DNA of 64,000 nt. It comes from Patescibacteria group bacterium (GTDB taxonomy: Bacteria > Patescibacteriota > Patescibacteriia > Magasanikbacterales > GWA2-37-8). Position numbers and translations under genes: made by a program. This document shows, one piece after another, positions 546-53,345 of this stretch. Under the pieces are notes generated by a model. That model searched no databases and was not told the DNA's origin. It saw only the letters and a program-made list of their open reading frames with translations. The stretch covers positions 183,420-247,419 of the forward strand of contig JAQTYG010000001.1 in assembly GCA_028688375.1 (NCBI GenBank), given 5' to 3'. Position 1 is the stretch's first letter. Each line of letters begins with the position of its first letter.

Positions 546-1337
546 CTATTTTTGTTGATAAATAGAAGCAGAAGTATTTTTTTCGAATTTCGCGTACTTT
601 TTTATTCCGAACTTGTGCAATTTATATTGGCAAATAATCTTAAAAAGATTAGCGGCGTATTTCATACCATTCACATAACAAATTTCGTCACCGTAATATG
701 TCGGAACCGGTACTTCCACTATTCTGAAATTATGATCCAAAAACTGGATAATTATTTCACTGTCAAAATGAAAATCGTTCGTGTTCTCTTGCAAGGGAAC
801 CGCGGCCAAGGCCTTGGTGGCGTAAGCTCGATAACCGGAGTGCCATTCGGATAGATGCGCGCCGGTCGCCCAATTTTCAAAAAAAGTCAGCACTTTGTTA
901 CCTACATATTTATATAGGGGCATGCCACCGCGCCGCGCCGCGCCTTTAACCAACATACGCGAACCAAAGACGGCTTCGGCCCGATCGGCGATCAACGGCG
1001 CCAAAATTTCCGGCAATGCTTCGGGCGCGTATTGTCCGTCGCCGTGCAGCATCACCACGATGTCATAACCTCTTTTGACCGCGTAATCATAGCCGCGTTT
1101 TTGATTGCCGCCGTAACCCAAATTAACTGGGTTGCGGAAAACAGTCAACTTTTCCAAGCCGGTTTTTCTCTTCCACTCTTCAGCTACTAAGTGGGTATCA
1201 TCTTTGGAAGCATCGTCAAAAACAAAAATTTCTTCCACCATTTCTTTAACTTCCGTCGGAATACGGTCCAGTACCCGGCTGATGGTGGTGGTGGCGTTAT
1301 AAGCGATAACAAAAATGGCAATTTTCTTTTTGTCCAT
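546..1337 (-). CDS. Glycosyltransferase family 2 (DPM1/GtrB-like)
   Basis: N-terminal GT-A signature IAIFVIAYNATTTISRVLDRIP...FVFDDASKDDT; 263 aa; typical DPM1-like length. Confidence 0.75.
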   Translation of the reverse strand: MDKKKIAIFVIAYNATTTISRVLDRIPTEVKEMVEEIFVFDDASKDDTHLVAEEWKRKTGLEKLTVFRNPVNLGYGGNQKRGYDYAVKRGYDIVVMLHGDGQYAPEALPEILAPLIADRAEAVFGSRMLVKGAARRGGMPLYKYVGNKVLTFFENWATGAHLSEWHSGYRAYATKALAAVPLQENTNDFHFDSEIIIQFLDHNFRIVEVPVPTYYGDEICYVNGMKYAANLFKIICQYKLHKFGIKKYAKFEKNTSASIYQQK

Positions 1338-31015: not shown

Positions 31016-33169
31016 TTATGTTTTTTCTTGTGGCGTCGAAGCGATTTGCTCTGCCAACTCCTGTAAAATTTCTTCACGCGTGCGCTCGAAACCGGCGTCA
31101 TCCAAAATCACGAACCCGCCGTCGGCCTCTTCTTTCACCACGAAAGAATCGGGCACAATATCGCTTAAAAATTTACGCGCCGCGCCGGCGGCCATCTCGG
31201 ACGACATCCCTTCGCTCTTAAAACGGTGGCTTAGCGACAATTCGGCCTGGCGCCGCGCCGTCTCAATCGCTTTAGAAACTTCCGCGCCCTGTTCGGCTCT
31301 TTTTATGGCGCCCAGATGTTCGCGCAAGCGTTGGTCCTCCCTCCCCCTCTTTTTCTCCCCCTCGGGCAGGGGGAGAGACGCGCCGTCTTCTCGCCCGCTT
31401 TCTCCGTCAGCTCGTTCCGCGCTACCGACCGCGGTTTTGACTACCCGGCTGTTGGTGGCTTTTTGCAATTCCAACAGCAAATCATTGATATCTTCTCCGT
31501 TCGGCAAAGCTACTGTCACTTCATCCCCGCCGACTAAAGTAAAAATTTTATCTTTAGAATAATATCGGCCACAAACCTCCGCCACCTTGGCGCGCACCTC
31601 GCGCATTCTTTTTGTGGTGCTGTCCCCGGCTTTCAACGAGGCCTCGGCTAAACTTATTTTACCCGCATCAATGTCGTTCAACAAACGCTCATATTCCAAA
31701 AGCAAATCCACGCCCAAATCCATCACGTCAATGGAGACATACACCGCGTCCGGCATTTTCATCGCCTCGGAATGAAAAATTTCCGGCGAGGCGCAGGTCG
31801 CGTCTTTTTGATCTACTTTCAAAATGGCCGCGACGGCTTGGCGGTCGGCTTGATTAAGGTCCTTCATTTTCGCCAAATCAATCAAGCGCCGGGTTTTATC
31901 GACTTTGTTTTTCAAGGTATCGTCGGCCGAACCAGGCAATGAATTTTTCCCGGCAATTTCATCGGCGGTAAGCGGTTTGAATAAATCTAACAAATTAACT
32001 CGGCGAATATATTGTTCAACTTTTTTTACCGCTTCTTCTTGGCCGGGCGCCGGTTCAAATTTATTTTTTCTGATCGCCCTGACTAAATCACGATTGATCG
32101 TCCGCCGGCCGTCCACGGTTTGCCAAACCTCAAACGGCAAGCCGTTTTTATCTTTAATTACACCGGCCAATTCTTTACCCGAAGCGATAATATTTCCGAT
32201 TTCAGCTTTAATAAATTTAGCGTCATATTCCCCGCCGTATTTTTTCTGCTCGCCATGCCGTAAAACCTGCGCCATCTGTTGGCTTTCGGCCACGGCCAAA
32301 GCGGCCGGGGTGTAGTCGCCGGATTTTGGCGAAGCGCCAACTTTGCTGGCGCCAAAAGTCGCTTTAAAACCCCACTGGCCGAGCTTGTTTTTAAAACTAT
32401 CCAATTTTTTTAATTTGGCTTCTTTGGCCGCCGGCGCCAGGGACGAATTTTTTAATTCTGTTTCTTTGGTTTTGATAGTTTCCAGAATCACTTTTACCAT
32501 GGCCTGATCCAATTGCCGACCGAGAGCGTTCATAATGTCGGCGGTTTTATCCGGGCCGCCCAATTCTTTTATTTTTTCTTGGTTCGGTTTCAAAATCCCA
32601 CTGCGAAAATCCTGATGCAAAATTTCCAGTCCATGGTGTTCGGCCAGCGAAGCCATGTAGTTTTTTCTGTGGTCAATAATTTCGTCAGTTAACTGTTGAC
32701 CGAATAATTCGTCGTTAAAATATTTGACGGAAAAAATACCGGCCGGCATGGAAAAATATATGGCCGTATCGCCCTGGCGCAATTCGCTAAAAATCTTTTG
32801 CCAGCTGCGCGACTCCAAGGACGAGGCGATATTGGCTGATTCGCGATCTGTCAGCTCTGCCATCTCTCCACCCGCCAATTTATTAATAAATTCCGCCCGC
32901 GCCAAAGCGCCACGAGTGCGTTCCAGCGTCGCCGAGTCAACCAATTCCGTTTCCACCCGCCGTTGATATTCGCGCGTTTTCTTTTTGTCCGGACTGACTA
33001 ATTCCACCACTGCTGCGCCCTCGTCAAGACCGTCAATCATCAGGCGGTCCACCGCGTTCTCCACATCCGCTTCAGATATTTCAATCTCCCGTCCTTGAGG
33101 GGCGATTTCCGGCGACTGGGGATAAATTTCTTTCTCAGGCAAAATTGCCGCGGCTTTGTTATTGGTCAT
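31016..33169 (-). CDS. Hypothetical 717 aa protein, coiled-coil/charged N-terminal region and a C-terminal degenerate GGDEF-like (nucleotide cyclase fold) domain; carries an in-frame repeat insertion
   Basis: VSIDVMDLGVD ... GDSTTKRMREV ... LVGGDEVTVALP parallels the DxD...GDE...GGDEF blocks of diguanylate cyclases (GGDEV instead of GGDEF); segment [16 protein letters not shown] comes from repeat family C. Confidence 0.35.
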   Translation of the reverse strand: MTNNKAAAILPEKEIYPQSPEIAPQGREIEISEADVENAVDRLMIDGLDEGAAVVELVSPDKKKTREYQRRVETELVDSATLERTRGALARAEFINKLAGGEMAELTDRESANIASSLESRSWQKIFSELRQGDTAIYFSMPAGIFSVKYFNDELFGQQLTDEIIDHRKNYMASLAEHHGLEILHQDFRSGILKPNQEKIKELGGPDKTADIMNALGRQLDQAMVKVILETIKTKETELKNSSLAPAAKEAKLKKLDSFKNKLGQWGFKATFGASKVGASPKSGDYTPAALAVAESQQMAQVLRHGEQKKYGGEYDAKFIKAEIGNIIASGKELAGVIKDKNGLPFEVWQTVDGRRTINRDLVRAIRKNKFEPAPGQEEAVKKVEQYIRRVNLLDLFKPLTADEIAGKNSLPGSADDTLKNKVDKTRRLIDLAKMKDLNQADRQAVAAILKVDQKDATCASPEIFHSEAMKMPDAVYVSIDVMDLGVDLLLEYERLLNDIDAGKISLAEASLKAGDSTTKRMREVRAKVAEVCGRYYSKDKIFTLVGGDEVTVALPNGEDINDLLLELQKATNSRVVKTAVGSAERADGESGREDGASLPLPEGEKKRGREDQRLREHLGAIKRAEQGAEVSKAIETARRQAELSLSHRFKSEGMSSEMAAGAARKFLSDIVPDSFVVKEEADGGFVILDDAGFERTREEILQELAEQIASTPQEKT
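31337..31384. repeat. Intragenic palindromic repeat element family C, copy 2
   Basis: tccctccccctctttttctccccctcgggcagggggagagacgcgcc; near-identical to 25286..25340; translated in frame within the 717 aa ORF. Confidence 0.75.
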
Positions 33170-33581: not shown

Positions 33582-36110
33582 TTATTGCGCTGTCTGAAAG
33601 TAATGGAAGCTGCGATAATCAGACCAGGGAGTATAGGTTGAATTATTTAATTTGGCGCGCACTCGGAAACGATAGGTGTTATCTGTGCCCGGCGCCCAAT
33701 AGCTGTAAGAATTACTACCGGTGATATAGGTATTAACAAGCGCCCACTGGCTGGAATAACCGTTGCAATAATCGCAGGCCACTTCCACGTCGTAATTTTG
33801 GGCGTTGCTGACCGAATACCAGCCCAGATTAACCGAGCGCGAACTTTGATTGATCGCCGCGTTGTTGGCCGGAGTATAAACTACCGGCGCATTGCCGTAA
33901 GAATTGCCGTTGGAAGAACCGCCGGCGTTAACCGAGAACTCTCGCCAATCAGACCAATTGGAATAAGCGCCATCGGAAAATTTCGTGCGCACGCGCATTC
34001 GATAATTATTATCGTACGAAAAATACATGGTGGCGAAATTGCTCCAGGCGGTCTGGGTGCGTTCCTCATACCAGCCGGTGCCGGATTTGTAATTGACGTT
34101 TATTTCGTAAGAAACAGAATGGCTATCATTTGACCAAGTGGCGTAAACATTGCGGCCGGTAAATGTCTGGCCGGCGTTCGGCATACTGATCAAAGGCGCG
34201 TCATCTAAATGATCATAACCGCCGCCATACGGCCCAACCATAAACTCTCGCCAATCAGACCAATCGCCGTAGGAATTATCCCAAAATTTAGCGCGAGCGC
34301 GCAAACGATAATAACCGTCATTGGTTACGTTGAAATTTAAACTATTTTGGATAGAGCCGTAAATACCGTCAGGCGTGCCATAGACATACCAGGTATTTCC
34401 AGATTTGTAATTAACCTCTACTGCATAAACATAAGCGCTGGGGACAGCGGTCCAACTGGAATAAACGGTGTGGTAGGTTAAGTACTGATCCTCGGTCGGA
34501 TTATATACGGAAATCCCGTTGGAATTGGAATTGTATTTATAATGGAAATAGCGATAATCAGACCAGGTGGTAAAATTGCCATTGCCTAAATTGGCGCGCA
34601 CGCGAAAATGGCACCAGGTATCGTCGCCGTGAACGGCATATAAATTATAGACGGCGCCGAACGGCAAATACGGATAAATAGTTTCAGTGCCATAGCCGTC
34701 GCAAGTCATTTCTATGATGTAACCGGTAACACCGGACACGCCGCTCCAACTTAAAGACACCATGCGACTGCCATTTTCAACCACGGCATTTTGCGCCGGA
34801 GTATAAATTACGGGGGCGGTAGTGTTATTATTGGTGCCGACGGTAAACTCTCGCCAGTCAGACCAATCGCTGTAGACAGAAGTGGTAAAATGGGCGCGGA
34901 CGCGGAAACGATATTTGTTATCGTCGCTAATATTCAGAGTGGGATTAACGTTGTAGACAGAGGTGTTGCTTTTGTTCACCCAAGCGCCATTGGAAAAATA
35001 ATCAAGATCCATTTCATAAGCCTGTGCGCCGGAATTGCTGGTCCAGCTGGCATTCACGAGATGATCATTGAAAACCTGGCCCTGCCACGGCGCGGTGATC
35101 ACCGGCGCGTCGTAATTGTGACTTCCGTTGTCATAATAAAAATGGTTGTATTCGCTCCACCCGCCGTAACTGCCGTTGCGGAAAGCGCGGACGCGGAAAC
35201 TGTATTGGCCAAAAACGCCGGAAGATAAAGTGACAGAAGTGTCGCTCGCGGTAATCGTGTTTTCCACCACCAAAACCCAAAATGAACCATTGTTTCTGGT
35301 CACTTGATATTGGTAAGCGGTGGCGCCGGCCACGACCGACCAATCCAAAGTTACATTATTACTTGTCAAATGGGCTTCATCAGTCGGCAAAAGAAGCGAC
35401 GGGACGGTTAAATCCGTGCCCGAATGCGTATCCACCTTAAAATACCGCCACTCAGACCAGTTGGTGTAGGTGTTGTTGGATAATTGCGCGCGAATTTTCA
35501 CGCGGTAACTGTTATCCCAAATGCCTTCGCCGATCACGTAATTATTGCTGGTTTGATAATCAACAAAATTTTTCCAAACGCCGTTGGAAGAATATTCCAC
35601 CGTAATAAAATAGGTTTGCGCGCTGACGACCGAGTTCCAATGGAAATCCGTGGAGTCCCAATCCATCGTTTGGTTGGCGCCTGGCACGGTAATCACCGGA
35701 GCGGTGGTCACCGGAGTTTGGGCGGAAGTATTAAATCTAAAATATTTATAATCAGACCAGTAACCGGCGGTAGCGCCATCATAAGCGCGGACACGCCAGC
35801 GGAATTGGTTGTCGCCCGGCATGGTTACGGTCAAAGTTCTGGCCGTAGTAGAATAGGTTTTAGCGCCCTGCCATTTGTTGGTTTTGCTGACGCAAACATC
35901 GCAGGTCACTTCCACTTCATACTTGGTGGCGTGGGAGACACTATCCCAGGTGAAGGTGGTTTGACGCGGATAATTAGTCAAGGTTTGATTGGACGCCGGA
36001 GCGGTCAAGTACGGAGCCGATAAAACCGAGGCCTTGGCCGTACCGACAGCAAAAAACGACGCCACAAAAATGACGGCGAGCCAAGCAACGATTTGGGGAT
36101 ATTTACGCAT
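33582..36110 (-). CDS. Secreted/cell-surface protein with about 8 tandem fibronectin type III-like repeats
   Basis: N-terminal signal peptide MRKYPQIVAWLAVIFVASFFAVGTAKA; recurrent about 95 aa units each ending Y/F-RFRVRA ... WSDWREF / WSDYRYF. Confidence 0.7.
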   Translation of the reverse strand: MRKYPQIVAWLAVIFVASFFAVGTAKASVLSAPYLTAPASNQTLTNYPRQTTFTWDSVSHATKYEVEVTCDVCVSKTNKWQGAKTYSTTARTLTVTMPGDNQFRWRVRAYDGATAGYWSDYKYFRFNTSAQTPVTTAPVITVPGANQTMDWDSTDFHWNSVVSAQTYFITVEYSSNGVWKNFVDYQTSNNYVIGEGIWDNSYRVKIRAQLSNNTYTNWSEWRYFKVDTHSGTDLTVPSLLLPTDEAHLTSNNVTLDWSVVAGATAYQYQVTRNNGSFWVLVVENTITASDTSVTLSSGVFGQYSFRVRAFRNGSYGGWSEYNHFYYDNGSHNYDAPVITAPWQGQVFNDHLVNASWTSNSGAQAYEMDLDYFSNGAWVNKSNTSVYNVNPTLNISDDNKYRFRVRAHFTTSVYSDWSDWREFTVGTNNNTTAPVIYTPAQNAVVENGSRMVSLSWSGVSGVTGYIIEMTCDGYGTETIYPYLPFGAVYNLYAVHGDDTWCHFRVRANLGNGNFTTWSDYRYFHYKYNSNSNGISVYNPTEDQYLTYHTVYSSWTAVPSAYVYAVEVNYKSGNTWYVYGTPDGIYGSIQNSLNFNVTNDGYYRLRARAKFWDNSYGDWSDWREFMVGPYGGGYDHLDDAPLISMPNAGQTFTGRNVYATWSNDSHSVSYEINVNYKSGTGWYEERTQTAWSNFATMYFSYDNNYRMRVRTKFSDGAYSNWSDWREFSVNAGGSSNGNSYGNAPVVYTPANNAAINQSSRSVNLGWYSVSNAQNYDVEVACDYCNGYSSQWALVNTYITGSNSYSYWAPGTDNTYRFRVRAKLNNSTYTPWSDYRSFHYFQTAQ

Positions 36111-36160: not shown

Positions 36161-36202
36161 ACGCTTAGTTTAGCAAAAAGTGACTTACTAACATAGCACA
36201 TC

Positions 36203-36231
36203 TTGACAAAAATGTCAATACATGCTATATT
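36203..36231 (+). promoter_or_regulatory. Near-consensus sigma70 promoter (TTGACA-17-TATATT) whose -35 is embedded in the palindrome TTGACAAAAATGTCAA
   Basis: Read directly; drives the GC-rich two-gene cassette starting at 36304. Confidence 0.65.
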
Positions 36232-36303
36232 TCTCTGTTCTAGCTCTTTGCCCAATTCAAGGGAATCAGGCCGTTTTTACGGCTTTCAACAAAGGAGCGA
36301 GCC

Positions 36304-36546
36304 ATGAAAAGGGTTTATTACTACCACTTTCCTGGTGGTCCGGGCGGGATCTTCGGAGCCAGCCCCTACGGCCAGATCATGATCCGCGACCTGGCGGATG
36401 GCGGGAAGGAGACGTACAGCGAGTATCTCACTGATATCGAGCTCCTGATCCTCCTGCTGAATGAACTGGCGAAGGACCCGCGGTGCAACAAGAACGACAT
36501 CGCTCGGGCCAAGGCCGAGATCCAGCGGAAGCTGGGCAAGAAGTAG
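36304..36546 (+). CDS. Hypothetical small protein (80 aa), GC-rich cassette gene 1
   Basis: AAAGGAG Shine-Dalgarno 7 nt upstream of ATG; about 60 percent GC versus under 40 percent in flanks; no recognisable domain. Confidence 0.55.
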   Translation: MKRVYYYHFPGGPGGIFGASPYGQIMIRDLADGGKETYSEYLTDIELLILLLNELAKDPRCNKNDIARAKAEIQRKLGKK

Positions 36547-36548
36547 CC

Positions 36549-37016
36549 ATGGAGACCACGCACGCCCACACCAACTTGTGCGAATGCGGACTATGCTGTG
36601 AGGGCAACCCGCATGTCTACATCGAGCTCAAAAACAAAAAACAGCGCCATGGGCCATTCGAATCGGCCTTCGAGGCGCTGATATTCCTCTTCGGGCGAAC
36701 CGCCAGCAAGGTGGTCACCAAAGAGGAGACCGGAAAGGAGGTCCTGACCGCCGATCTGGACAAGAAAGAGGCGGTCGAGATCGGCCAGTGGATTCTGAAC
36801 ATCCTGCCCCACGGCCGGACCGACACCACCACCGCCGCCACCGAGCTCAAGCGCGAGCTCGAACGCCACCACAACGGACAGTCCGTCCGCCTGCTTGAAC
36901 TGGCGGACGCTATGTTCGCTCCCCTGTTGGAAGGGGAAAAGTCCTTTGATAAGCTCCCACCGCCCCGAGAGCGCGAGAAGCTCTCGCTACGATACGTCGT
37001 GGCTACCGGCGGTTGA
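36549..37016 (+). CDS. Hypothetical protein (155 aa) with N-terminal Cys cluster (CECGLCCEGNPH), GC-rich cassette gene 2
   Basis: ATG immediately after the gene 1 stop (the ORF track's longer 36483 start overlaps gene 1 and is less likely); followed by a terminator at 37040. Confidence 0.5.
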   Translation: METTHAHTNLCECGLCCEGNPHVYIELKNKKQRHGPFESAFEALIFLFGRTASKVVTKEETGKEVLTADLDKKEAVEIGQWILNILPHGRTDTTTAATELKRELERHHNGQSVRLLELADAMFAPLLEGEKSFDKLPPPREREKLSLRYVVATGG

Positions 37017-37039
37017 GCTTCCGACCCACCCGCACCCCC

Positions 37040-37077
37040 GGCCGTCCTGACACATGTTAGGACGGCCTTTCTCTTTT
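37040..37077 (+). terminator. Rho-independent terminator (GGCCGTCCT-loop-AGGACGGCC followed by TTTCTCTTTT)
   Basis: Read directly, 9 bp perfect stem plus a U-rich tract. Confidence 0.7.
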
Positions 37078-37086
37078 ATACACGGA

Positions 37087-37115
37087 TTGACTTTGGCCGA
37101 TTTTTACGCTATAAT
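37087..37115 (+). promoter_or_regulatory. Near-consensus sigma70 promoter TTGACT-17-TATAAT
   Basis: Read directly; no ORF follows, only a structured approximately 130 nt segment ending in a terminator. Confidence 0.6.
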
Positions 37116-37217
37116 TTTTTAGCTATTATAATCCGCCCGTTTAGGAACGGGCAACGAACATGGCCCGTTCGTCTATCAGTTAGGACACGGCCCTCTCAAG
37201 GCTGAAAGACGGGTGCG

Positions 37218-37236
37218 ATTCCCGTACGGGCTACAA
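37218..37236. repeat. 19 nt direct repeat ATTCCCGTACGGGCTACAA, copy 1 (tRNA-3'-end-like)
   Basis: Identical 19-mer recurs at 37449..37467. Confidence 0.6.
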
Positions 37237-37296: not shown

Positions 37297-37317
37297 CCTG
37301 CCTGCCGGCAGGCAGGC
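37297..37317. repeat. GC-rich palindromic repeat family D (CCTGCCTGCCGGCAGGCAGGC), left flank of the AT-rich defense island
   Basis: 20/21 identical to 42257..42277; core TGCCTGCCGGCAGGCA is a perfect palindrome. Confidence 0.55.
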
Positions 37318-37448: not shown

Positions 37449-37467
37449 ATTCCCGTACGGGCTACAA
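37449..37467. repeat. 19 nt direct repeat ATTCCCGTACGGGCTACAA, copy 2
   Basis: Identical to 37218..37236; preceded by several GC hairpins (GGCGGACTT..AAGTCCGCC, GCCGAGCCGA..TCGGCTCGGC). Confidence 0.6.
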
Positions 37468-37544: not shown

Positions 37545-37925
37545 TTATTTTTTGACAACATTGTCCTTGTTAAACAAAAAACCCACTACTATCAATGCTA
37601 ACCCGATCGTTTTTAAAAAACTCTCTCCAACAAAAAATGGCACAATATAACCTTCGTTAAAGCTCATCCATTTAAATCCTACTGCCACTATAACAAAAAA
37701 ATCAAAAACAACAATTGAAATGATAACCCGTAATAACCAATCAGACCATGTCCTTCTCATGCCCATTATATCCAGTCTTTCGCGAGCCAAAATTTGCGCA
37801 ATTATTTTATCCTGCTCCAGCTGGCTCATTTTCCTTTGTGTTTCTAAATCAGGCCCAACAATATCGTAAGTCGTTTGTTCCTCCAATATCTTTTTGACTT
37901 CCTCAACTGTTACGCGATTTTCCAT
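37545..37925 (-). CDS. Small membrane protein (126 aa, soluble N-terminal domain plus 2 TM helices); holin-like or membrane anchor
   Basis: WLLRVIISIVVFDFFVIVAVGF and LKTIGLALIVVGFLF hydrophobic helices; overlaps the ImmA-like gene by 16 nt. Confidence 0.45.
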   Translation of the reverse strand: MENRVTVEEVKKILEEQTTYDIVGPDLETQRKMSQLEQDKIIAQILARERLDIMGMRRTWSDWLLRVIISIVVFDFFVIVAVGFKWMSFNEGYIVPFFVGESFLKTIGLALIVVGFLFNKDNVVKK

Positions 37926-38506
37926 AAATTCAGCTTCTTCATTCTGAAAGCCATCATTTCATTTGACACTCCGAACATTTTGGCCAGCAGATCAATATCA
38001 TCTTTTGTAATTTTGTATTTATTTATTATTTCTTCAGCCATGTTTTTAGGCACAAGAATATTAGCGGCAAAACAATTAGCCTCTTGCTCTACCGGGCTAT
38101 AATTTCCATTAATGATTGTTTGTCGCAATAACACATTGTAGTCGGAAGGCTTATGTTCCATTTTAAAGTGTCCCAACTCATGTGCTATAGTGAACATCTG
38201 ACGATTTGCTGGGTCGTCATTGTTAACAAAAATTATCTTCTTTTCAATATCTAAGAAACCAGCGACGGATTGAAGCTTCTCGGGCATTTTAATAAAACGC
38301 AATTCCAGCCCCTCGCCTTTGGCAATTTGAAAAACATTAACAACGGGTTCGGTTACACCATATTTTACCAACAAATCATTGGCTAATTCTTCACATTTTG
38401 GAAAATTTGCCTCGCCCATATAATAATGGTTAATTTTTACTTCTGCTGTTGGTAGTATAGCACAATAAAGAAATTTTGACGATTTTAAATTTTTCTTTAT
38501 GCACAA
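37910..38506 (-). CDS. ImmA/IrrE family zinc metallo-endopeptidase (DUF955)
   Basis: HEXXH motif FTIAHELGHFKMEH plus downstream EQEANCFAANILVP are typical of ImmA/IrrE; real start is probably the internal MGEANFP. Confidence 0.65.
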   Translation of the reverse strand: MCIKKNLKSSKFLYCAILPTAEVKINHYYMGEANFPKCEELANDLLVKYGVTEPVVNVFQIAKGEGLELRFIKMPEKLQSVAGFLDIEKKIIFVNNDDPANRQMFTIAHELGHFKMEHKPSDYNVLLRQTIINGNYSPVEQEANCFAANILVPKNMAEEIINKYKITKDDIDLLAKMFGVSNEMMAFRMKKLNLWKIA

Positions 38507-39289
38507 TCAAGTAAAATCTATAAATTTAGCCTGGTATTTATCCTTCCACTGACTTTTAGAGATAACCCTCTCAGAATAAACACCGGGAGGCGGCCAGTTC
38601 ACCTCCGAAATTTTAATACTACCATCTTGGTACACCTCTTCTACAAACGCAACATGACCTACTGCAGGATTTTTTAAACTTCCGACGAACGACATGGCAC
38701 AACCGGCCTTTGGTTCTTCCAGAATCCTGTACTGGGCACTTCTTTGAAAAATCCCTGCCCATAAGCCCCCATTACGCGGTCTTTCTGCTGGCCATTTGAT
38801 AGTGATGCCCATTTGCTGAATTTTATAATGAACATACTCTACGCACTGAAGATCGTCTCTTCGTGCTCCTCCACCAAACTCATCATTAATAATTTTGCGT
38901 AATTTTATGGAATTTGCATCAGTCGCGAGATTTTTTTCGTGATTATGAAAAGCTGGCACGACATCCTGAAATACTTCTTTTTTCTGCAAATTTTCCAATG
39001 CGATTGGAACGACTTCTACTAAATAAAATTTAGAAACCCAGCCGTTTTTCCCATCAGCATTGACCCTAAACCAGTCGCCATTTTCTTCAACAGCCTCAAC
39101 CTTAGTACTAAAAGCGAGTTTTGCGATAATATTATCGTTGTTAATCTTTTCCGGGCTGGAACGCATGCGTAACCCATCGGAAGCACTGACAAATAACTCT
39201 TTAGTGGAAAATTGTGGAGTTATATCTGCTACATTTGTTTTTTCTTCGAAGTCAAACGTTTGATTGCACTTAGGACAAGTTATCGGCAT
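38507..39289 (-). CDS. Zinc-ribbon - SH3-like - CHAP domain protein (putative peptidoglycan amidase/endopeptidase; endolysin-like, no signal peptide)
   Basis: N-terminal CPKCNQTF zinc ribbon; NGDWFRVNADGKNGWVSKFYL SH3b-like; C-terminal QCVEYVHYKI ... GHVAFVEEV consistent with CHAP Cys/His catalytic residues. Confidence 0.55.
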   Translation of the reverse strand: MPITCPKCNQTFDFEEKTNVADITPQFSTKELFVSASDGLRMRSSPEKINNDNIIAKLAFSTKVEAVEENGDWFRVNADGKNGWVSKFYLVEVVPIALENLQKKEVFQDVVPAFHNHEKNLATDANSIKLRKIINDEFGGGARRDDLQCVEYVHYKIQQMGITIKWPAERPRNGGLWAGIFQRSAQYRILEEPKAGCAMSFVGSLKNPAVGHVAFVEEVYQDGSIKISEVNWPPPGVYSERVISKSQWKDKYQAKFIDFT

Positions 39290-39335
39290 ATAATATTTTC
39301 GGGTTATTTATAATATCATTATACTAGAAAGAATC

Positions 39336-40427
39336 TTATTTTCCAGATTTGGTTCGATTATCTTGCTTACACAACATTTGGCAATTCTCGGCAACAGTTT
39401 TACCACCCTCGTGCCACGGCTTTATATGGTCGGCTTCCATTTCTTCTATTTCAAAACGCTTCTTGCATTTTTTACAAATTCCTTTTTGCCTCTCATACGC
39501 TTCGCGCTTCATTTTGTCCGTAAAAGCACGAATCGAAAGAAATTTTTCTTGTCCCGTTAAAACATACGGGTAAATACCGGATTTTTTTGTAACATCTTCA
39601 TCTTGCATTAACTCTTTGATCTCGGCTTCAAGTTTACCGGCGTTCAATTTCCTATCTTTGAATTGATTATACAGTTCACCCCATTGCACGCCACTCATTT
39701 CTCGGCGATAATTTGTAAAAATTTTACGCACCCACGCAATCACGTCTTGAAAATACTGCCACAATGCTTCCGCATCCTTTTTATTTTGATGTTTGGCCAT
39801 GTAATCTTCTATCTTGCCGTCGTTAATCCACGAAAGTGCTGTTTCTAAATACTCCTGGCGAATTGGCGAGCCGTTAACTAATTGCCCGCCGTCGTTCGCT
39901 AACAAATATGCCGCGCAATTTGATTTGCTGAATTTAAGTTTGGCGTCAGAGAGCCATGGCCCGGTATATACCGCGTTGCGTATTTCTTGGTCAGTCAATT
40001 TTTCACCGGCAATATTAATAATTCTAAACCAGTCCAGTCGTTCTTTGTCTGTACCCTCGCAGAAATATATCATCAGTTCATAATCCAAAATCTGTTTTTG
40101 TTCTTCGTTGGTCAAGTTGTGAAAAAAACGATCATTCAGCGAAAAATCGCCATTAATATATTGCCCGATACTAATGGTGCGCTGTTGGCCGTCCAAAACT
40201 TCGAAATTTCCTTGGTCGGTCTTGACCCAGTACATCACATTAAGCGGAAAGCTATTTTTAATCGTTTCAAGCACGGCATCCCGCTGTTTGCCGGTATAAA
40301 CAAATTCGCGCTGATATTTGGGGCGGATATCCAGCTTACCGCCATACGCGACCACGCCTTCTTCGGCGCTGTCTTTGTAACCAACGACCACTTTACGCAC
40401 CGAAATTTTATGTAATTCAATTTTCAT
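39336..40427 (-). CDS. DUF262 (ParB/GmrSD N-terminal-like) - HNH endonuclease fusion protein; candidate restriction/defense nuclease
   Basis: VLDGQQRT (DGQQR signature of DUF262); C-terminal CKKCKKRFEIEEMEADHIKPWHEGGKTVAENCQMLCKQDNRTK HNH motif. Confidence 0.7.
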   Translation of the reverse strand: MKIELHKISVRKVVVGYKDSAEEGVVAYGGKLDIRPKYQREFVYTGKQRDAVLETIKNSFPLNVMYWVKTDQGNFEVLDGQQRTISIGQYINGDFSLNDRFFHNLTNEEQKQILDYELMIYFCEGTDKERLDWFRIINIAGEKLTDQEIRNAVYTGPWLSDAKLKFSKSNCAAYLLANDGGQLVNGSPIRQEYLETALSWINDGKIEDYMAKHQNKKDAEALWQYFQDVIAWVRKIFTNYRREMSGVQWGELYNQFKDRKLNAGKLEAEIKELMQDEDVTKKSGIYPYVLTGQEKFLSIRAFTDKMKREAYERQKGICKKCKKRFEIEEMEADHIKPWHEGGKTVAENCQMLCKQDNRTKSGK

Positions 40428-40428
40428 A

Positions 40429-41382
40429 TTATTTTTTTACTTTCTTATTTTTAACTAAAATTCTAAAATATGTAAATTTCCCATTTATTGACAGGTCTTT
40501 ATCATCATCGCCCTTACGAAACTTCACAATTTCAAACTGGTCCGGATTATATTTATCAATAAAAGTTATCGGCACACCAATAACGCCGTTATAATCATAG
40601 GGAATATCCGTATATTTGTCTACGTTGATTGCATCATAATTATCATAATGTGGATATTCCTCGGGGTTGTATTTTTTATATAATGTTATAAATTCCTTAT
40701 GCTTTTCAACCTCAAGGCTTGTGAACCAACACGAAGTTGAAACTCGCGCGATTTTCTTACCGTTCTCATCAATATGGTGAAACAATTCCCAATCGTCTGG
40801 CACCATAAAGAACATACCGACGTTAAAATTGGTGTAACCTGTTCGAATTTTGTCTTCTTTGAATAACTTAAAAATTTCTTTATAAGTTATCGCATTGGTA
40901 TTGCCGATAATCAAAAACCTCTTATCGTACTCCATCAGCTGCGCCATATACTCACGAAATAGTGAAAATGGCGGGTTTGTTACTATGATGTCAGCTTGTT
41001 TGAGAAGGTCAATACATTCCTTGCTTCGGAAATCGCCGTCGCTTATCATTTCGGTCATAAATTCATCCGGGTCGGGCATGCGATTACCATTTTTATCCCC
41101 AGCGTATTCCAATTTATAAGGTTTTTTATTGGTAAATAAAGTTGCGCCTTTGAAATGGGTGGCAATCAATTTCTTCAATCCTAAATGTTCAAAATTTCTA
41201 CTGAAATATTTAACAAAGTTACTTTCTCTCGGGTCATCGCAATTACAAAATACCACCTTTCCTCGAAACTGATCTTTATAATGCTTGATTTCATTTTCAA
41301 TATCGGCAAGCTGGGTATAAAACTCGTCTTTCTTTTCTTTACTTGCCTTATGCAAACTTTTATTTGATGATTTAGTTACCAT
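40429..41382 (-). CDS. N6-adenine DNA methyltransferase of the M.EcoRI family
   Basis: KDEFYTQLADIENEIKHYKDQFRGKVVFCNCDDPRESNFVKYF and IIVTNPPFSLFREY (NPPF catalytic motif) closely parallel M.EcoRI-family methylases; 317 aa; 1 nt gap to the downstream gene and 2 nt to the upstream gene. Confidence 0.7.
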   Translation of the reverse strand: MVTKSSNKSLHKASKEKKDEFYTQLADIENEIKHYKDQFRGKVVFCNCDDPRESNFVKYFSRNFEHLGLKKLIATHFKGATLFTNKKPYKLEYAGDKNGNRMPDPDEFMTEMISDGDFRSKECIDLLKQADIIVTNPPFSLFREYMAQLMEYDKRFLIIGNTNAITYKEIFKLFKEDKIRTGYTNFNVGMFFMVPDDWELFHHIDENGKKIARVSTSCWFTSLEVEKHKEFITLYKKYNPEEYPHYDNYDAINVDKYTDIPYDYNGVIGVPITFIDKYNPDQFEIVKFRKGDDDKDLSINGKFTYFRILVKNKKVKK

Positions 41383-41384
41383 AA

Positions 41385-42134
41385 TTATCTTCTTGTTATC
41401 AAGTCATACGCCAAGCTGGCGAGTGATATATAATGAATTGCTAAATTTTTATCCAAATCTTGAGCGGGAGTATGCGCTTTTTCATTCCGCAAAAATTGGA
41501 TGGACATATGTAAAAATTTTACTCCCTCAAAAAAATCTTTTTCCGCGTCATTTTTCGGTTTCCGCCCAAAAATTATTTCTTGGTTCGATTCCGCAAACGC
41601 CTCGTGCGCTTTTTCTTTGCCGGTAATATCTCTGAGCTTTTGACGAACGATTTTATACGCTTCTTCTACGGCGTTAAAATAATGCCCACTATTCAGAAAT
41701 TTTTGAACATGGTCAAAAACTTCTTTTTGCAAAATTATATTGATATTACCGTTCTTAAAGGTGGCTTGGGATATATTTTCAACTTTCACTTTTACCCCAA
41801 GAAGTTTTTCGCCAATGTTTTTAGCGGCGGTCATTCTGTCGGCTGGAAAATCATCTCGTTTCAAATTATCCAATAAAATCTGATTTTCAATATATTCAAT
41901 GAGTTTCAAAATACTTTTTCCAACGATTTTATCGTCTGCGTTCGTCCATAGGCCACGGAGACGATTTGCTTTTGAACCGCTGGCATAATTGTACCTTTGA
42001 TTGTAAATATCAATGCCGATGTCATCTCTAAAAAATTCACCCATTGTTCGGTCGGAAAAATTCAAAACATAACCACTGCCCATCTGGAGTAGTTTTTCAA
42101 GTGTCTGTTTTTCGAGTGTAGTCAGTTCTGCCAT
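41385..42134 (-). CDS. HEPN domain protein (TIGR02391/Swt1-like, Rx4-6H motif); Abi-like RNase candidate
   Basis: C-terminal FLRNEKAHTP provides the HEPN R-x4-H motif; first gene of the three-gene operon; sigma70-like promoter (TTGCGA-16/17-TAGAAT) immediately upstream at about 42140..42175. Confidence 0.55.
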   Translation of the reverse strand: MAELTTLEKQTLEKLLQMGSGYVLNFSDRTMGEFFRDDIGIDIYNQRYNYASGSKANRLRGLWTNADDKIVGKSILKLIEYIENQILLDNLKRDDFPADRMTAAKNIGEKLLGVKVKVENISQATFKNGNINIILQKEVFDHVQKFLNSGHYFNAVEEAYKIVRQKLRDITGKEKAHEAFAESNQEIIFGRKPKNDAEKDFFEGVKFLHMSIQFLRNEKAHTPAQDLDKNLAIHYISLASLAYDLITRR

Positions 42135-42139
42135 AATCT

Positions 42140-42480
42140 TATTCTATTCTATACTTATTAGAAAGATTCGCAATATATTTCTGGATTCCCGCCAGAGTTT
42201 ATCCTCGCGAAAGCGGGGGCGGGAATGACAGGGCTTCGCCGCGACCTCACCCCAGCCCTGCCTACCGGCAGGCAGGCCTCTCCTTATCAAGGAGAGGGGC
42301 GCCGGAGGGATTCCTCCACTACGGTCGGAATGACAGGACTTCCCCTCGCCCCCTCTTTATATAAGAGGGGGAAAGATCCTTCGCTTCGCTCAGGATGACA
42401 AGTGGCGGGAATGACAGGGTGACGAGAAGATCCTTCTCTCCGCTCAGGGTGACACCGCAAATTGCGGTGTCACTTTCTCT
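42140..42480. repeat. Repeat-dense intergenic region: at least five REP-like elements (families A, B, D plus the CTCTCCTTATCAAGGAGAGG hairpin and the GTGACACCGC-AAATT-GCGGTGTCAC hairpin)
   Basis: Family A at 42180..42232, D at 42257..42277, B-type at 42371..42400 and 42424..42454, perfect 10 bp hairpin at 42451..42473. Confidence 0.6.
42257..42277. repeat. GC-rich palindromic repeat family D (CCTGCCTACCGGCAGGCAGGC), right flank of the defense island
   Basis: 20/21 identical to 37297..37317. Confidence 0.55.
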
Positions 42481-52456: not shown

Positions 52457-52840
52457 CTACTTGGCGAGGTCGGCGGGCACGGGAGGACCTTCGACGACAG
52501 GGAGACCGAGAAGGCGCTGCTGTTCGGGCGTGAGCAGGCTGAGAGCTTTCTTGACCGCTTCGGCCCGGATCGCTTCCTGGTCGCTGAGTTCGACCGGAGT
52601 GTTGTTGAGAACATATCCAGTCTTGCCGTCTTTCGTCAGGACGGACACCTCCACCACATTGCCGTCTCTACCGTACCAGGCCCTCCCCCTACCTTCCGCT
52701 GTGGCCAGGTCTTTGTCGGAGAAATATCCTCCGATATTCCAGCTGTTGCCCATCTCGTTATCGGAGAGTTGTAACATATACCATGTTTCAACTCGCCAAC
52801 CAGCCAGACCTTCTTTGAGCAGTTCCGGCACCATGTTCAT
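52457..52840 (-). CDS. Hypothetical small protein, paralog A (127 aa) of a tandem duplicated cassette
   Basis: AAGGAGG Shine-Dalgarno; shares GWRVETWY, VLTKDGKTG and LLGLP blocks with paralog B; TTGACA-17-TAAAGT promoter at about 52880..52908. Confidence 0.55.
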   Translation of the reverse strand: MNMVPELLKEGLAGWRVETWYMLQLSDNEMGNSWNIGGYFSDKDLATAEGRGRAWYGRDGNVVEVSVLTKDGKTGYVLNNTPVELSDQEAIRAEAVKKALSLLTPEQQRLLGLPVVEGPPVPADLAK

Positions 52841-52973: not shown

Positions 52974-53345
52974 CTATCTGAGGAAAGGCAGGCCGAGAAG
53001 CTGACACTCTTCGGCGGTGAGTACGGTTCCGATTTTTTTGAGGGCTTCGGCTTTTCTGGCGGCGAGCCGGTTTTCCTCGTCTTCGATCTCGATTACTTCC
53101 CCGCGGAGAGTCCAGCCAGTCTTGTCGTCTTTGGTCAGGACGTGAACCGCTTCCACGACCGCGTCCGAACAAGCTGAGCAGGAACCTCGTTCGTCCCCGT
53201 GTGCGAGGCGAGCCTGATTCTCGCTGGGAAAATACCTCACCTTATCTCCGGCAGGAACCGCGCCGGCAGATAAGGTCATCAGTCCGTACCAGGTTTCCAC
53301 TCGCCAACCGACCTTTTTCAGGTCCTCCATGAGTTCTTCCCACAT
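52974..53345 (-). CDS. Hypothetical small protein, paralog B (123 aa); Cys-containing variant (CSACSD)
   Basis: AAGGAGGG Shine-Dalgarno; TTGACA-17-TAGAGT promoter at about 53395..53425; paralogous to 52457..52840. Confidence 0.55.
   Translation of the reverse strand: MWEELMEDLKKVGWRVETWYGLMTLSAGAVPAGDKVRYFPSENQARLAHGDERGSCSACSDAVVEAVHVLTKDDKTGWTLRGEVIEIEDEENRLAARKAEALKKIGTVLTAEECQLLGLPFLR

What the first reader, a model, noticed from the sequence alone, without database searches (positions are those of the whole stretch)
36203..37077. GC-rich (about 60 percent) two-gene cassette with near-consensus promoter whose -35 box lies in a TTGACAAAAATGTCAA palindrome
A textbook TTGACA-17-TATATT promoter drives two small ORFs (80 aa; 155 aa with a CECGLCCEGNPH cysteine cluster). 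The first has a strong Shine-Dalgarno, and a clean intrinsic terminator follows. Composition is radically different from both flanks (FN3 gene about 52 percent, defense island about 35 percent). The palindromic -35 operator suggests auto-repression. The cassette looks like a foreign, independently regulated module of unknown function, such as a toxin/immunity pair, anti-defense genes or a phage moron.
Basis: seen in the sequence. Interest (0 to 1): 0.5.

Follow-up and report, generated by a model that had tools for sequence, protein, structure and literature searches.

The report
Conserved GC-rich orphan two-gene operon
This small two-gene unit with unusually GC-rich codons is not a fresh foreign insert: it is a fast-evolving module, restricted to one group of ultra-small Patescibacteria, that always sits head-to-head with a large surface-protein gene and next to one tRNA gene, and what its proteins do is still unknown.

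Summary
Window 36203-37077 is a complete transcription unit: a TTGACA-17-TATATT promoter with a TGn extension, a Shine-Dalgarno site, two coupled ORFs of 80 and 155 aa, and a 12-bp hairpin terminator. The ORFs are 58-60% GC with GC3 of 0.78-0.82, against 0.54 +/- 0.055 for core genes.

Direct searches found only the source MAG's own proteins. Searching with the neighbouring FN3-repeat protein, then with a profile, found eight more loci. In these, very divergent homologues (13-32% identity) lie in the same arrangement: FN3-like gene, divergent promoters, ORF1, ORF2, sometimes ORF3, then tRNA-Glu(CUC), between MgsA and Mur.

Every copy is GC3-rich (0.63-0.80) against host-like flanks, so the composition is a conserved trait and not a recent-transfer scar. 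dN/dS of 0.18-0.51 shows real genes that evolve fast. Single genes have been swapped between near-identical backgrounds.

The cassette promoter is orthologous in all loci, but the palindrome occurs only in the window. There its second arm is the -35 of the only candidate promoter for the FN3 gene. No protein, phage or defence family matches.

My best guess, at low confidence, is a lineage-specific cytoplasmic partner or regulator of the divergent surface-protein operon, of old GC-rich mobile-element ancestry.

The parts
36203..36231 (+). Cassette promoter: TTGACA, 17-nt spacer, TATATT, with a TGn extended -10
   Evidence: scores it 11 of 12 with TG. In one search, CTTGACA and the ATGnTA..T -10 region are invariant across all 7 aligned loci, so the promoter is orthologous.
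36190..36218 (-). Candidate promoter of the divergent FN3-repeat gene: TTGACA (36218-36213), 17-nt spacer, TATGTT (36195-36190), with TGn. It interleaves with the cassette promoter.
   Evidence: scores it 10 of 12 with TG. It is the only minus-strand candidate between the two genes. One search shows that the window lacks the stretch that carries the FN3 promoter in relatives.
36203..36218 (.). Palindrome TTGACAAAAATGTCAA, read here as the two -35 hexamers of the overlapping divergent promoters
   Evidence: One search finds it once in the window (0.08 expected with up to 1 mismatch). Searches show no palindrome at this place in the relatives, where the two -35 boxes lie about 61 nt apart.
36269..36284 (+). 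Small hairpin in the 5' UTR (GGCCGT-TTTT-ACGGCT), about 7 nt upstream of the Shine-Dalgarno site
   Evidence: A hairpin lies at the equivalent place in 6 of 7 loci (not L083). The individual z-scores are modest, from -0.8 to -2.4.
36291..36297 (+). Shine-Dalgarno site AAAGGAG, 6 nt before the ORF1 ATG
36304..36546 (+). ORF1, 80 aa, pI 9.1. Member of a new small-protein family of 80-116 aa with a conserved C-terminal KERAKAEI-like helix.
   Evidence: GC3 is 0.82. It is the positional orthologue of the ORF1 genes in L083, L084, L086-L089 and L093. In a leave-one-out HMM search it is the top hit among 745 window ORFs, but only at E=0.08. Family dN/dS is 0.32-0.48.
36549..37016 (+). ORF2, 155 aa, pI 6.2. 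Member of a second new family of 143-156 aa. The N-terminal Cys/His cluster CECGLCCEGNPH is shared only with the L083 type.
   Evidence: BLASTP against the L083 ORF gives E=6e-6. The profile search finds 9 members. The leave-one-out HMM gives E=1.7e-4. Family dN/dS is 0.18-0.51.
37040..37077 (+). Intrinsic terminator: 12-bp stem, 4-nt loop, T-rich tail
   Evidence: Equivalent hairpin terminators follow the cassettes in L083, L089 and L093.
37087..37234 (+). Conserved neighbour: tRNA-Glu(CUC) at 37162-37234, with its own TTGACT-17-TATAAT promoter at 37087-37115
   Evidence: The tRNA is adjacent to the cassette in L083, L086, L087, L089 and L093. Its promoter is homologous to that of L003.
33582..36110 (-). 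Conserved divergent partner: an 842-aa secreted protein built of FN3/Ig-like repeats
   Evidence: Homologues of 34-53% identity sit head-to-head with the cassette in L083, L084, L086, L087, L088, L089 and L093.

Best explanation
SHOWN.
- Window 36203-37077 is a real, self-contained operon. It has a sigma-70-type promoter with an extended -10, a Shine-Dalgarno site, two translationally coupled genes and an intrinsic terminator.
- It encodes two soluble proteins with no predicted membrane or signal segment. They belong to two previously undescribed protein families that evolve very fast.
- It is the local copy of a module found only in a narrow clade of Magasanikbacteria-like Patescibacteria.
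- In every locus where the neighbours are visible, the module is transcribed divergently from the gene of a large FN3/Ig-repeat surface protein and lies beside tRNA-Glu(CUC), between MgsA and Mur.
- GC-rich, AAG- and GAG-rich codon usage is a conserved property of the module in all lineages. Its untranslated flanks are AT-rich like the rest of the genome.

INFERRED.
1. The module was already present in the common ancestor of these lineages. Its composition is the legacy of an old acquisition from a GC-rich mobile-element gene pool. That legacy is only partly eroded, and allele exchange within the clade keeps reshuffling it.
2. In the window, the palindrome is the interleaving of the -35 hexamers of the cassette promoter and the FN3 promoter. 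RNA polymerase can therefore occupy only one promoter at a time, and the two units are expressed reciprocally.
3. Function, my committed guess at about 0.4: the small proteins act in the cytoplasm as a lineage-specific partner or regulatory pair for the divergent surface-protein operon, and not as a selfish toxin-antitoxin or phage gene.
For: A real unit and real genes:
- The unit's anatomy is confirmed.
- The GC1>GC2<<GC3 pattern is seen only in the sense frames.
- dN/dS is 0.18-0.51 in the relatives.
- Independent assemblies reproduce the junctions.

Conserved module:
- FN3 homologues carry the two GC-rich divergent ORFs and the tRNA in L083 and L084.
- Pairwise and profile homology is significant for ORF2. 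For window ORF1 it is only suggestive (E=0.08).
- Synteny is full in L086-L089, L093 and L094: MgsA, p717, FN3-like gene, cassette, tRNA-Glu, then Mur, PBP and a radical-SAM gene.
- The cassette promoter is orthologous in all seven aligned loci.

Conserved composition:
- The relatives' cassette genes are 0.53-0.61 GC with GC3 of 0.63-0.80; the window's are 0.58-0.60 with GC3 of 0.78-0.82. Flanking genes in every locus are 0.37-0.51 GC with GC3 of 0.39-0.60.
- The codon-usage contrast is large.

Fast evolution and allele exchange:
- Between L086 and L087, cassette dN is about 10 times that of Mur.
- ORF1 is cleanly replaced between L089 and L084, whose flanks are 93-95% identical.
- ORF2 is exchanged between L086 and L093. 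Third-position identity is 0.97 for ORF1, 0.76 for ORF2 and 0.85 for ORF3.

Narrow distribution:
- Only 9 ORF2-family proteins were found among 5.8 billion cluster representatives.
- ORF2 alone found nothing else among 1.84 billion representatives read by HMMER.
- None is present in 80 other Patescibacteria MgsA loci.

Promoters.

Mobile-element hint: in L088 the cassette is followed by a SprT-like gene of the type found on actinobacterial plasmids. It has the same GC3 (0.81) as the cassette.
Against: - No fold or family assignment exists. Nothing supports DNA binding: the HTH_24 hit (E=0.026) is below the Pfam cutoff and is not shared by any other ORF1 member.
- Co-occurrence with the FN3 gene could be plain synteny inertia within a narrow clade.
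- ORF1 alleles swap while the neighbouring FN3 5' end stays nearly identical. This argues against tight co-adaptation.
- Homology of window ORF1 to the family rests on position plus a weak score (E=0.08).
- The origin of the GC3 excess is unresolved. Flank dS between the window and the L086 clade is saturated (1.6-2.4), so a neutral excess should mostly have decayed. Polarised third-position changes are S>W 44 to W>S 28. That ratio lies between stationarity (1:1) and host-like decay (about 2.6:1).
- No transcription data are available, so both promoters are predictions.
Confidence: 0.6

Rival explanations
1. Remnant of a GC-rich integrative mobile element (plasmid- or ICE-like) lodged at the tRNA-Glu hotspot. 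Its surviving genes would serve a conflict function: addiction, immunity, defence or anti-defence. It would be kept because it is selfish or protective, with no functional link to the FN3 gene.
For: - Codon usage is foreign in every copy.
- The cassette is next to a tRNA in a region of repeated rearrangement. The tRNA is inverted in L089 and L093, a defence island lies after the tRNA in the window, and the tRNA 3' end is duplicated at 37449-37467.
- Gene number is variable, 2 or 3, plus a SprT-like plasmid-type gene with the same GC3 in L088.
- Alleles are replaced and evolution is fast, as in arms-race genes.
Against: - There is no integrase or other mobile-element hallmark gene in the window, L086, L087 or L089.
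- The cassette lies 5' of the tRNA, and no direct repeats flank it.
- The families are tiny and confined to one clade, unlike promiscuous TA or defence genes.
- There are no PADLOC, PHROG or Pfam hits.
- The promoter and position are inherited vertically.
- The L088 junction falls inside ORF3 on a 7.4-kb contig and could be a misassembly.
Confidence: 0.25
2. One reading: a recently acquired, independently regulated foreign cassette (toxin/immunity pair or phage moron). One of its own products would auto-repress it by binding the palindrome at the -35.
For: - The unit runs from its own promoter to its own terminator, with deviant composition.
- It consists of two small coupled genes.
- The 6-4-6 palindrome on the -35 is more than chance would give.
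- Direct searches returned no homologues.
Against: - Orthologous cassettes and an orthologous promoter are present in lineages that diverged to 72-78% Mur/MgsA identity.
- The palindrome is absent from all relatives and has an alternative reading as the FN3 promoter's -35.
- Most relatives have three genes.
- There is no phage context and no viral homologue.
Confidence: 0.1
3. The ORFs are artefacts of GC-rich DNA, and the region really specifies a structured non-coding RNA upstream of the tRNA.
For: - The whole transcript folds with z = -7.9, and the ORF2 segment with z = -5.7.
- GC-rich DNA throws up long spurious ORFs. Antisense ORFs were in fact called by annotators in L087 and L088.
Against: - Codon-position GC is typical of coding sequence only in the sense frames.
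- pN is lower than pS in every pair, with dN/dS of 0.18-0.51.
- Protein-level motifs are conserved where nucleotide similarity is gone.
- Rfam finds only the tRNA.
- The excess folding is not shared by relatives: z is -1.2 to -3.5, within or just beyond the range of control genes (+0.7 to -2.7).
Confidence: 0.03

Closest known systems
Phage 'morons': autonomous promoter-gene-terminator units with deviant composition, first described in lambdoid prophages (from my own knowledge)
   Same: It has its own promoter and intrinsic terminator, a compact 1-2-gene payload of unknown function, and a base composition unlike its neighbours.
   Different: It is not inside a prophage. It has no phage neighbours or phage homologues. 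It is inherited at one chromosomal site across a clade and is not scattered as a presence/absence insert. Its composition is higher in GC than the host.
Type II toxin-antitoxin operons
   Same: Two small, translationally coupled genes with the smaller one first, and a palindrome over the promoter in the window.
   Different: There is no match to any toxin or antitoxin family and no supported DNA-binding domain. Most relatives have three genes. The palindrome is not conserved. The phyletic range is extremely narrow, and the position is stably syntenic.
Divergently transcribed regulator/target pairs with overlapping promoters, such as tetR/tetA of Tn10 or LysR-type regulators (from my own knowledge)
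   Same: A head-to-head arrangement with a conserved partner gene. In the window the two core promoters overlap within 42 bp, which predicts mutual interference.
   Different: No helix-turn-helix or other regulator domain can be recognised. There are two or three proteins, not one. In the relatives the two promoters lie about 61 nt apart.
tRNA-associated genomic islands and actinomycete integrative elements (AICE type)
   Same: It lies next to a tRNA gene in a rearrangement-prone hotspot and has GC-rich codon usage. One relative (L088) carries an appended SprT-like gene of the kind found on actinobacterial plasmids.
   Different: It lies upstream of the tRNA, not downstream. It has no integrase and no flanking att repeats. 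Its promoter is host-like and orthologous across the clade.

Membership tests
Phage moron | Autonomous transcription unit with its own promoter and terminator | tested here: met
Phage moron | Embedded between phage genes in a phage or prophage genome | tested here: not met
   The neighbours are an FN3 surface protein, tRNA-Glu, MgsA and Mur. There are no PHROG hits, and no relatives in viral contigs or phage records.
Phage moron | Present or absent between otherwise collinear relatives (an insert) | tested here: not met
   Every contig that carries the FN3 homologue also carries the cassette behind an orthologous promoter. No empty site was found.
Type II toxin-antitoxin | Two adjacent small co-transcribed genes | tested here: met
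   However, L086, L087, L089, L093 and L094 have three genes.
Type II toxin-antitoxin | Sequence or fold membership in a known toxin or antitoxin family | tested here: not met
   Pfam, NCBIfam, PADLOC and PDB by sequence, using single proteins and family alignments, all find nothing. The AF2 models are too poor to use (pLDDT 42 and 59), and Foldseek finds nothing at E<=0.001.
Type II toxin-antitoxin | Conserved autoregulatory operator at the promoter | tested here: not met
   The palindrome is specific to the window, while the promoter is conserved.
Type II toxin-antitoxin | Toxicity of one product, neutralised by the other | not testable with these tools
   This needs expression experiments.
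tRNA-targeting integrative element / genomic island | Integrase gene, and direct repeats of the tRNA 3' end bounding the element, which lies 3' of the tRNA | tested here: not met
   There is no integrase among the genes at 29.7-43.8 kb. The cassette is 5' of the tRNA. The only tRNA-end repeat (37218-37236 and 37449-37467) lies downstream and does not bracket the cassette.
tRNA-targeting integrative element / genomic island | Mobile-element hallmark genes linked to the cassette | tested here: inconclusive
   Only L088 shows a SprT-like plasmid-type fragment after ORF3 (tblastn E about 1e-9 to actinobacterial plasmids; GC3 0.81). The contig ends 327 nt into that reading frame.
Divergent regulator-target gene pair | Conserved head-to-head adjacency with the target gene and a shared control region | tested here: met
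   Seen in seven loci plus the window.
Divergent regulator-target gene pair | A recognisable DNA-binding domain in the small protein | tested here: not met
   There is only a sub-threshold HTH_24 hit (E=0.026, 14.5 bits against a 21.9-bit cutoff) in 1 of 7 ORF1 members.

The most novel reading that the evidence does not exclude
The GC-rich, GAG- and AAG-heavy codon usage is held in place by selection, not inherited passively, and it is functionally tied to the tRNA-Glu(CUC) gene that accompanies the cassette in every lineage. Translation of these small proteins would then be gated by the supply of a minor tRNA encoded next door. That would form a codon-tRNA regulatory unit that sets the level of a partner of the surface-protein operon in a reduced-genome episymbiont.
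Probability: 0.07. Interest if true: 0.7.

Novelty: new member of a known kind. Interest (0 to 1): 0.33.

Why it matters
- The work defines three new small-protein families (ORF1, ORF2 and ORF3 types) and a conserved gene neighbourhood in a poorly understood group of ultra-small bacteria. These families are linked to a rapidly evolving FN3-repeat surface protein, which is a plausible host-contact molecule.
- It is a cautionary case. A strong compositional anomaly together with "no homologues in billions of proteins" looked like fresh horizontal transfer. Synteny-guided searching showed an old, vertically kept module that is simply too divergent for direct sequence search.
- The persistence of a 20-30-point GC3 excess through saturated synonymous divergence is unusual. 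Gene-by-gene allele swapping inside a module of roughly 1-1.5 kb is also unusual. Both would repay study.
- Nothing here yet points to a new mechanism.

Tried and rejected
- **Direct homology.** I searched ORF1 and ORF2 against Pfam, PHROGs, PADLOC, NCBIfam and PDB sequences. I also searched the 5.8-billion-protein word-indexed set, ran ORF2 alone against the 1.84-billion-protein HMMER set, and ran ORF2 against JGI metagenome contigs and both ORFs against IMG/VR. Only the source MAG's own proteins came back.
- **Structure.** pLDDT was 42 and 59, and Foldseek against PDB found nothing at E<=0.001. In hindsight I should have kept these jobs for the family alignments.
- **Family-level searches.** Profiles against PDB, each member against Pfam at E<=10, and members against PHROGs gave no consistent hit. 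The ORF1, ORF2 and ORF3 families are unrelated to each other and to the GC-rich paralogues at 52.5-53.3 kb by hhalign.
- **Exact-protein look-ups.** Look-ups of the FN3 and Mur proteins found nothing on record.
- **Structured-RNA explanation for the GC content.** The window's ORF2 mRNA is an outlier (z = -5.7), but relatives fall within or just beyond the range of control genes, so I rejected this as a general cause.
- **Amelioration test.** Polarised third-position changes gave S>W 44 to W>S 28, which is ambiguous.
- **Cassette homologues beside SprT-like genes on three actinobacterial plasmids.** None was convincing; the best was E=0.04 among 382 ORFs.
- **Viral contigs with family members.** Nothing was found, and two alignments were too divergent for the tool to use.
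- **Translational-selection explanation.** I could not test it, because the window has no ribosomal-protein or EF-Tu genes.
- **Literature.** Two searches found nothing specific.
- One script call returned nothing and was rerun.
Full report
**1. The observation.**
- The plus-strand promoter is TTGACA (36203-36208), 17 nt, TATATT (36226-36231). It scores 11 of 12 and has a TG two bases upstream of the -10.
- The 16-nt palindrome TTGACAAAAATGTCAA (36203-36218) is unique in the 64-kb window. With up to one mismatch allowed, 0.08 matches are expected by chance.
- AAAGGAG lies 6 nt before the ORF1 ATG.
- ORF1 (36304-36546, 80 aa) is followed after 2 nt by ORF2 (36549-37016, 155 aa, with CECGLCCEGNPH at residues 11-22).
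- A 12-bp hairpin (8 GC pairs) with a T-rich tail follows at 37040-37077.
- The interval is 57.7% GC and the ORFs are 58.0% and 60.3% GC.
- Two Logan assemblies from runs SRR22315508 and SRR22315509 reproduce the joins to the FN3 gene and to the tRNA. The unit is therefore not a chimera.

**2. The ORFs are genes.**
- GC by codon position is 0.57/0.36/0.82 for ORF1 and 0.63/0.40/0.78 for ORF2. This GC1>GC2<<GC3 pattern is typical of coding sequence and appears only in these frames.
- In the relatives found later, every pairwise comparison has pN below pS, with dN/dS of 0.18-0.51. Neighbouring housekeeping genes (Mur, g210, MgsA) give 0.08-0.13, and p717 up to 0.29.
- Rfam finds only tRNA-Glu(CUC) at 37162-37234, 85 nt beyond the terminator tail, with its own TTGACT-17-TATAAT promoter.

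**3. Direct searches made the cassette look like an orphan.**
- Pfam, PHROGs, PADLOC, NCBIfam and PDB sequences gave nothing. The one exception was a sub-threshold HTH_24 hit in ORF1 (E=0.026).
- The 5.8-billion-protein search returned only the source proteins, PHD72_01145 and PHD72_01150 of an NCBI "Patescibacteria group bacterium" MAG on a 281-kb contig.
- A full HMMER pass of ORF2 over 1.84 billion representatives added only a repetitive 1301-aa protein at E=2.6e-4.
- ORF2 against JGI metagenome contigs, and both ORFs against IMG/VR, gave nothing.

**4. Synteny changed the picture.**
- The closest species-level genomes by MgsA are Candidatus Magasanikbacteria, up to 78% identical.
- The nearest, L003, has Mur followed by tRNA-Glu, then p717 and MgsA further on. 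It has no FN3 gene and no cassette.
- Searching metagenome contigs with the FN3 protein found L083, L084 and L085.
- In L083, upstream of the FN3 homologue and divergent from it, lie two GC-rich ORFs, a hairpin terminator and tRNA-Glu(CUC). L084 has the same two ORFs.
- The second L083 ORF carries FCECGACGGNVH and matches window ORF2 at E=6e-6.
- The first ORFs share a C-terminal ...KERAKAEI(R/Q)... helix.
- A profile of the three ORF2 homologues then retrieved 9 proteins from the 5.8-billion set.
- Their contigs (L086, 70 kb; L087; L088; L089; L093; L094) show the same order as the window: MgsA, p717, a 106-aa gene, the FN3-like gene, then on the other strand ORF1, ORF2, ORF3 and tRNA-Glu, then Mur, PBP, a radical-SAM gene and a P-type ATPase.
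- Leave-one-out HMMs, scored against all 745 window ORF segments, rank window ORF2 first at E=1.7e-4 and window ORF1 first at E=0.08.
- ORF2 homology is therefore established. ORF1 is a positional orthologue with weak sequence support.
- ORF3 is absent from the window and from L083.
- L093 comes from the same run (SRR22315508) as the window's own cassette. Two versions therefore coexist in one sample.

**5. The compositional anomaly is a conserved trait.**
- In every locus the cassette genes are 0.53-0.61 GC. GC3 is 0.63-0.80 in the relatives and 0.78-0.82 in the window.
- Flanking genes are 0.37-0.51 GC with GC3 of 0.39-0.60, and the divergent intergenic region is 0.30-0.35 GC.
- In the window, GC3 is +4.3 and +5.0 sd from 28 core genes. 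The shift is general: AAG 0.70 against 0.19, GAG 0.71 against 0.31, ATC 0.83 against 0.34, and CTG+CTC 0.82 against 0.33. L086 shows the same direction.
- Synonymous divergence of flanking genes between the window and the L086 clade is saturated (dS 1.6-2.4). A neutral foreign composition should therefore have largely relaxed.
- I tested two explanations.
  - Selection for mRNA structure. Window ORF2 folds far better than shuffles (z = -5.7; whole transcript z = -7.9). Relatives' cassettes give z of -1.2 to -3.5, and control genes give +0.7 to -2.7. This is not a general cause.
  - Ongoing decay. Polarised third-position changes in the L086 clade are S>W 44 to W>S 28. ORF1 is strongly biased towards decay (13:2), and ORF2 is balanced (26:24 in the two independent pairs). 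The total sits between stationarity and the roughly 2.6:1 expected under host-like mutation.
- The cause is unresolved. An old acquisition from a very GC-rich pool with incomplete amelioration, some selective maintenance, and re-import of alleles all remain possible.

**6. Evolutionary mode.**
- The cassette evolves about ten times faster than Mur at the protein level (dN 0.19-0.27 against 0.017 for L086 and L087).
- Across lineages, ORF2 identity to the window is 13-18% for the L086 clade and 28-32% for the L083 type. ORF1 identity is 17-27%. By comparison, FN3 is 34-39%, p717 36%, Mur 72% and MgsA 78%.
- Single genes have been swapped.
  - L089 and L084 are 93-95% identical on both sides of ORF1 but share no nucleotide similarity across it. 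One has an 86-aa allele and the other a 116-aa allele.
  - ORF3 also has two allele classes, 29-34% identical.
  - L086 and L093 have third-position identity of 0.97 in ORF1 but 0.76 in ORF2.
It is not a family-wide metal site.

**7. The promoter and the palindrome.**
- Aligning the seven divergent intergenic regions shows that the cassette promoter is orthologous everywhere. CTTGACA, the 17-nt spacing and the ATGnTA..T extended -10 are invariant.
- In the relatives, the FN3 gene has its own TTGACA-17-TA(C/T)ATT promoter with TGn. Its -35 lies about 61 nt from the cassette's -35, and there is no palindrome.
- The window lacks the stretch that carries that promoter. Instead it has TGTCAA inside the cassette promoter's spacer.
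- Read on the minus strand, this gives TTGACA (36218-36213), 17 nt, TATGTT (36195-36190) with TGn, scoring 10 of 12. It is the only sigma-70-like candidate for the FN3 gene in the 193-nt gap between the two start codons.
- I therefore read the palindrome as two interleaved -35 hexamers of overlapping divergent promoters spanning 42 bp. This predicts that the two promoters cannot be occupied at once.
- This reading is inference. A window-specific operator is not excluded; I put it at about 0.3-0.4 for that sub-claim.
- A short 5' UTR hairpin just upstream of the Shine-Dalgarno site recurs in 6 of 7 loci, but it is statistically weak.

**8. Link to mobile elements.**
- There is no integrase, no phage gene and no att repeat around the cassette, and it lies upstream of the tRNA.
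- The surroundings are nevertheless a rearrangement hotspot.
  - A low-GC island follows the tRNA in the window. It carries an EcoRI-type methylase, a GmrSD_N-HNH endonuclease, an M78 peptidase, an SH3-CHAP protein and a Hypoth_Ymh protein.
  - The tRNA's last 19 nt are repeated 231 nt downstream.
  - The tRNA is inverted in L089 and L093.
- In L088, similarity to L089 stops inside ORF3. A plus-strand ORF follows that is similar to SprT-like proteins of actinobacterial plasmids (E about 1e-9). Its GC3 is 0.81, like the cassette's.
- This hints that the cassette descends from a GC-rich plasmid- or ICE-like element. However, the contig ends 327 nt into that reading frame and the join could be artefactual.
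- Neighbours of SprT-like genes on three plasmids do not resemble ORF1-3.

**9. What it most likely is and does.**
- Shown: a real operon of two new, fast-evolving small-protein families, belonging to a clade-restricted module conserved in position, orientation, promoter and composition.
- Inferred: ancestral presence, an old GC-rich mobile-element origin, and promoter interference with the FN3 gene.
- Function cannot be read from sequence.
- I commit, at about 0.4, to a lineage-specific cytoplasmic partner or regulator of the divergent surface-protein operon. My reasons:
  - Both the FN3 family and the cassette families are confined to the same clade.
  - The head-to-head arrangement and the shared control region survive amid heavy local rearrangement.
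  - Selfish modules such as toxin-antitoxin pairs normally spread widely, whereas only 9 ORF2-family proteins exist in the searched collections.
- A conflict-type remnant of a mobile element is the main rival, at about 0.25.
- The recent-insert or moron reading is largely excluded.

**10. Novelty and limits.**
- The three protein families are new, and the persistent codon-usage island is unusual. The kind of object, an accessory orphan operon of probable foreign ancestry, is familiar.
- The main weakness is the lack of a usable structure.
- There are also no transcription data, and no whole-genome reference for codon usage.

Noticed in passing
window 37218-37236 and 37449-37467: The last 19 nt of tRNA-Glu (ATTCCCGTACGGGCTACAA) are repeated exactly 231 nt downstream. 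This is an att-like scar of an integration or excision at the tRNA 3' end.
   Followed up: partly
window 37297-37316 and 42257-42276: The 20-nt GC palindrome CCTGCCTRCCGGCAGGCAGG brackets the low-GC island (0 copies expected by chance). Matches of about 31 nt to the second copy occur, sometimes as inverted pairs, in unrelated Patescibacteria loci L040 and L047. It may be a widespread REP- or MITE-like element.
   Followed up: partly
window 37545-42134 (minus strand): A low-GC (34-41%) six-gene island follows the tRNA. It encodes a 126-aa membrane protein, an M78/ImmA-like peptidase (capP-like), an SH3+CHAP protein, a GmrSD_N+HNH endonuclease (PADLOC REase_II, 1.5e-136), an EcoRI-type adenine methylase and a Hypoth_Ymh protein. 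None of these genes was found in the related loci compared, and L086, L087 and L089 carry two other genes (g210, g461) there.
   Followed up: partly
window 42185-42460: Several families of 25-28-nt direct repeats (GGAATGACAGG..., AAGATCCTTC..CTCAGGRTGACA) fill the GC-rich spacer between the island and Mur.
   Followed up: no
L089 1953-2025; L093 about 2030-2063; L003, L004, L005, L011: The orientation of tRNA-Glu(CUC) flips between close relatives. It is co-directional with the cassette in the window, L083, L086 and L087, and inverted in L089 and L093. In Magasanikbacteria that lack the cassette it points the same way as MgsA.
   Followed up: partly
L088 7107-7449: Similarity to L089 ends inside ORF3. 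A GC-rich (GC3 0.81) fragment of a SprT-like gene follows, of the kind found on Streptomyces, Amycolatopsis and Iamia plasmids (tblastn E about 1e-9). It is either a larger GC-rich element or a chimeric join.
   Followed up: partly
L083 about 1082-1099 (minus strand); L084, L086-L089 intergenic regions: Relatives carry an inverted repeat between the two divergent promoters. It reads TTGGCTAA-TT-TTAGCCAA in L083 and AGCCRAGG...TTTGGCT in the L084 clade. This is a better operator candidate than the window's palindrome. L093 has an extra palindromic MITE-like insert at that spot.
   Followed up: no
window 52457-52840 and 52974-53345 (minus strand): Two paralogous (41% identical) GC-rich orphan small proteins share a GWRVETWY motif. 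Pfam finds no hit for the one scanned (52974-53345). They are unrelated to the ORF1 family by hhalign. They are a second patch of GC-rich orphan genes in this genome.
   Followed up: partly
window 36549-37016: The ORF2 mRNA folds far better than dinucleotide shuffles (z = -5.7; -193.5 against -161.9 +/- 5.5 kcal/mol). Homologous cassettes and control genes do not. This is unexplained.
   Followed up: partly
window 31016-33169 (minus strand), and homologues in L003, L022, L085, L086, L088: A conserved protein of about 650-720 aa lies downstream of the FN3 gene. It has no Pfam, NCBIfam, PHROG or PDB match. By eye it carries a GGDE(V)-type motif, for example VGGDEVALA in L085, which recalls nucleotidyl-cyclase palm domains. 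I did not test this further.
   Followed up: no
L087 1832-2425 and L088 6925-7449 (called genes, minus strand): Gene callers annotated antisense ORFs across the GC-rich ORF3 region (GC by codon position 0.72/0.54/0.51). In L088 they fused ORF2 with upstream sequence into a 232-aa product. These are annotation artefacts typical of GC-rich segments in AT-richer genomes.
   Followed up: yes
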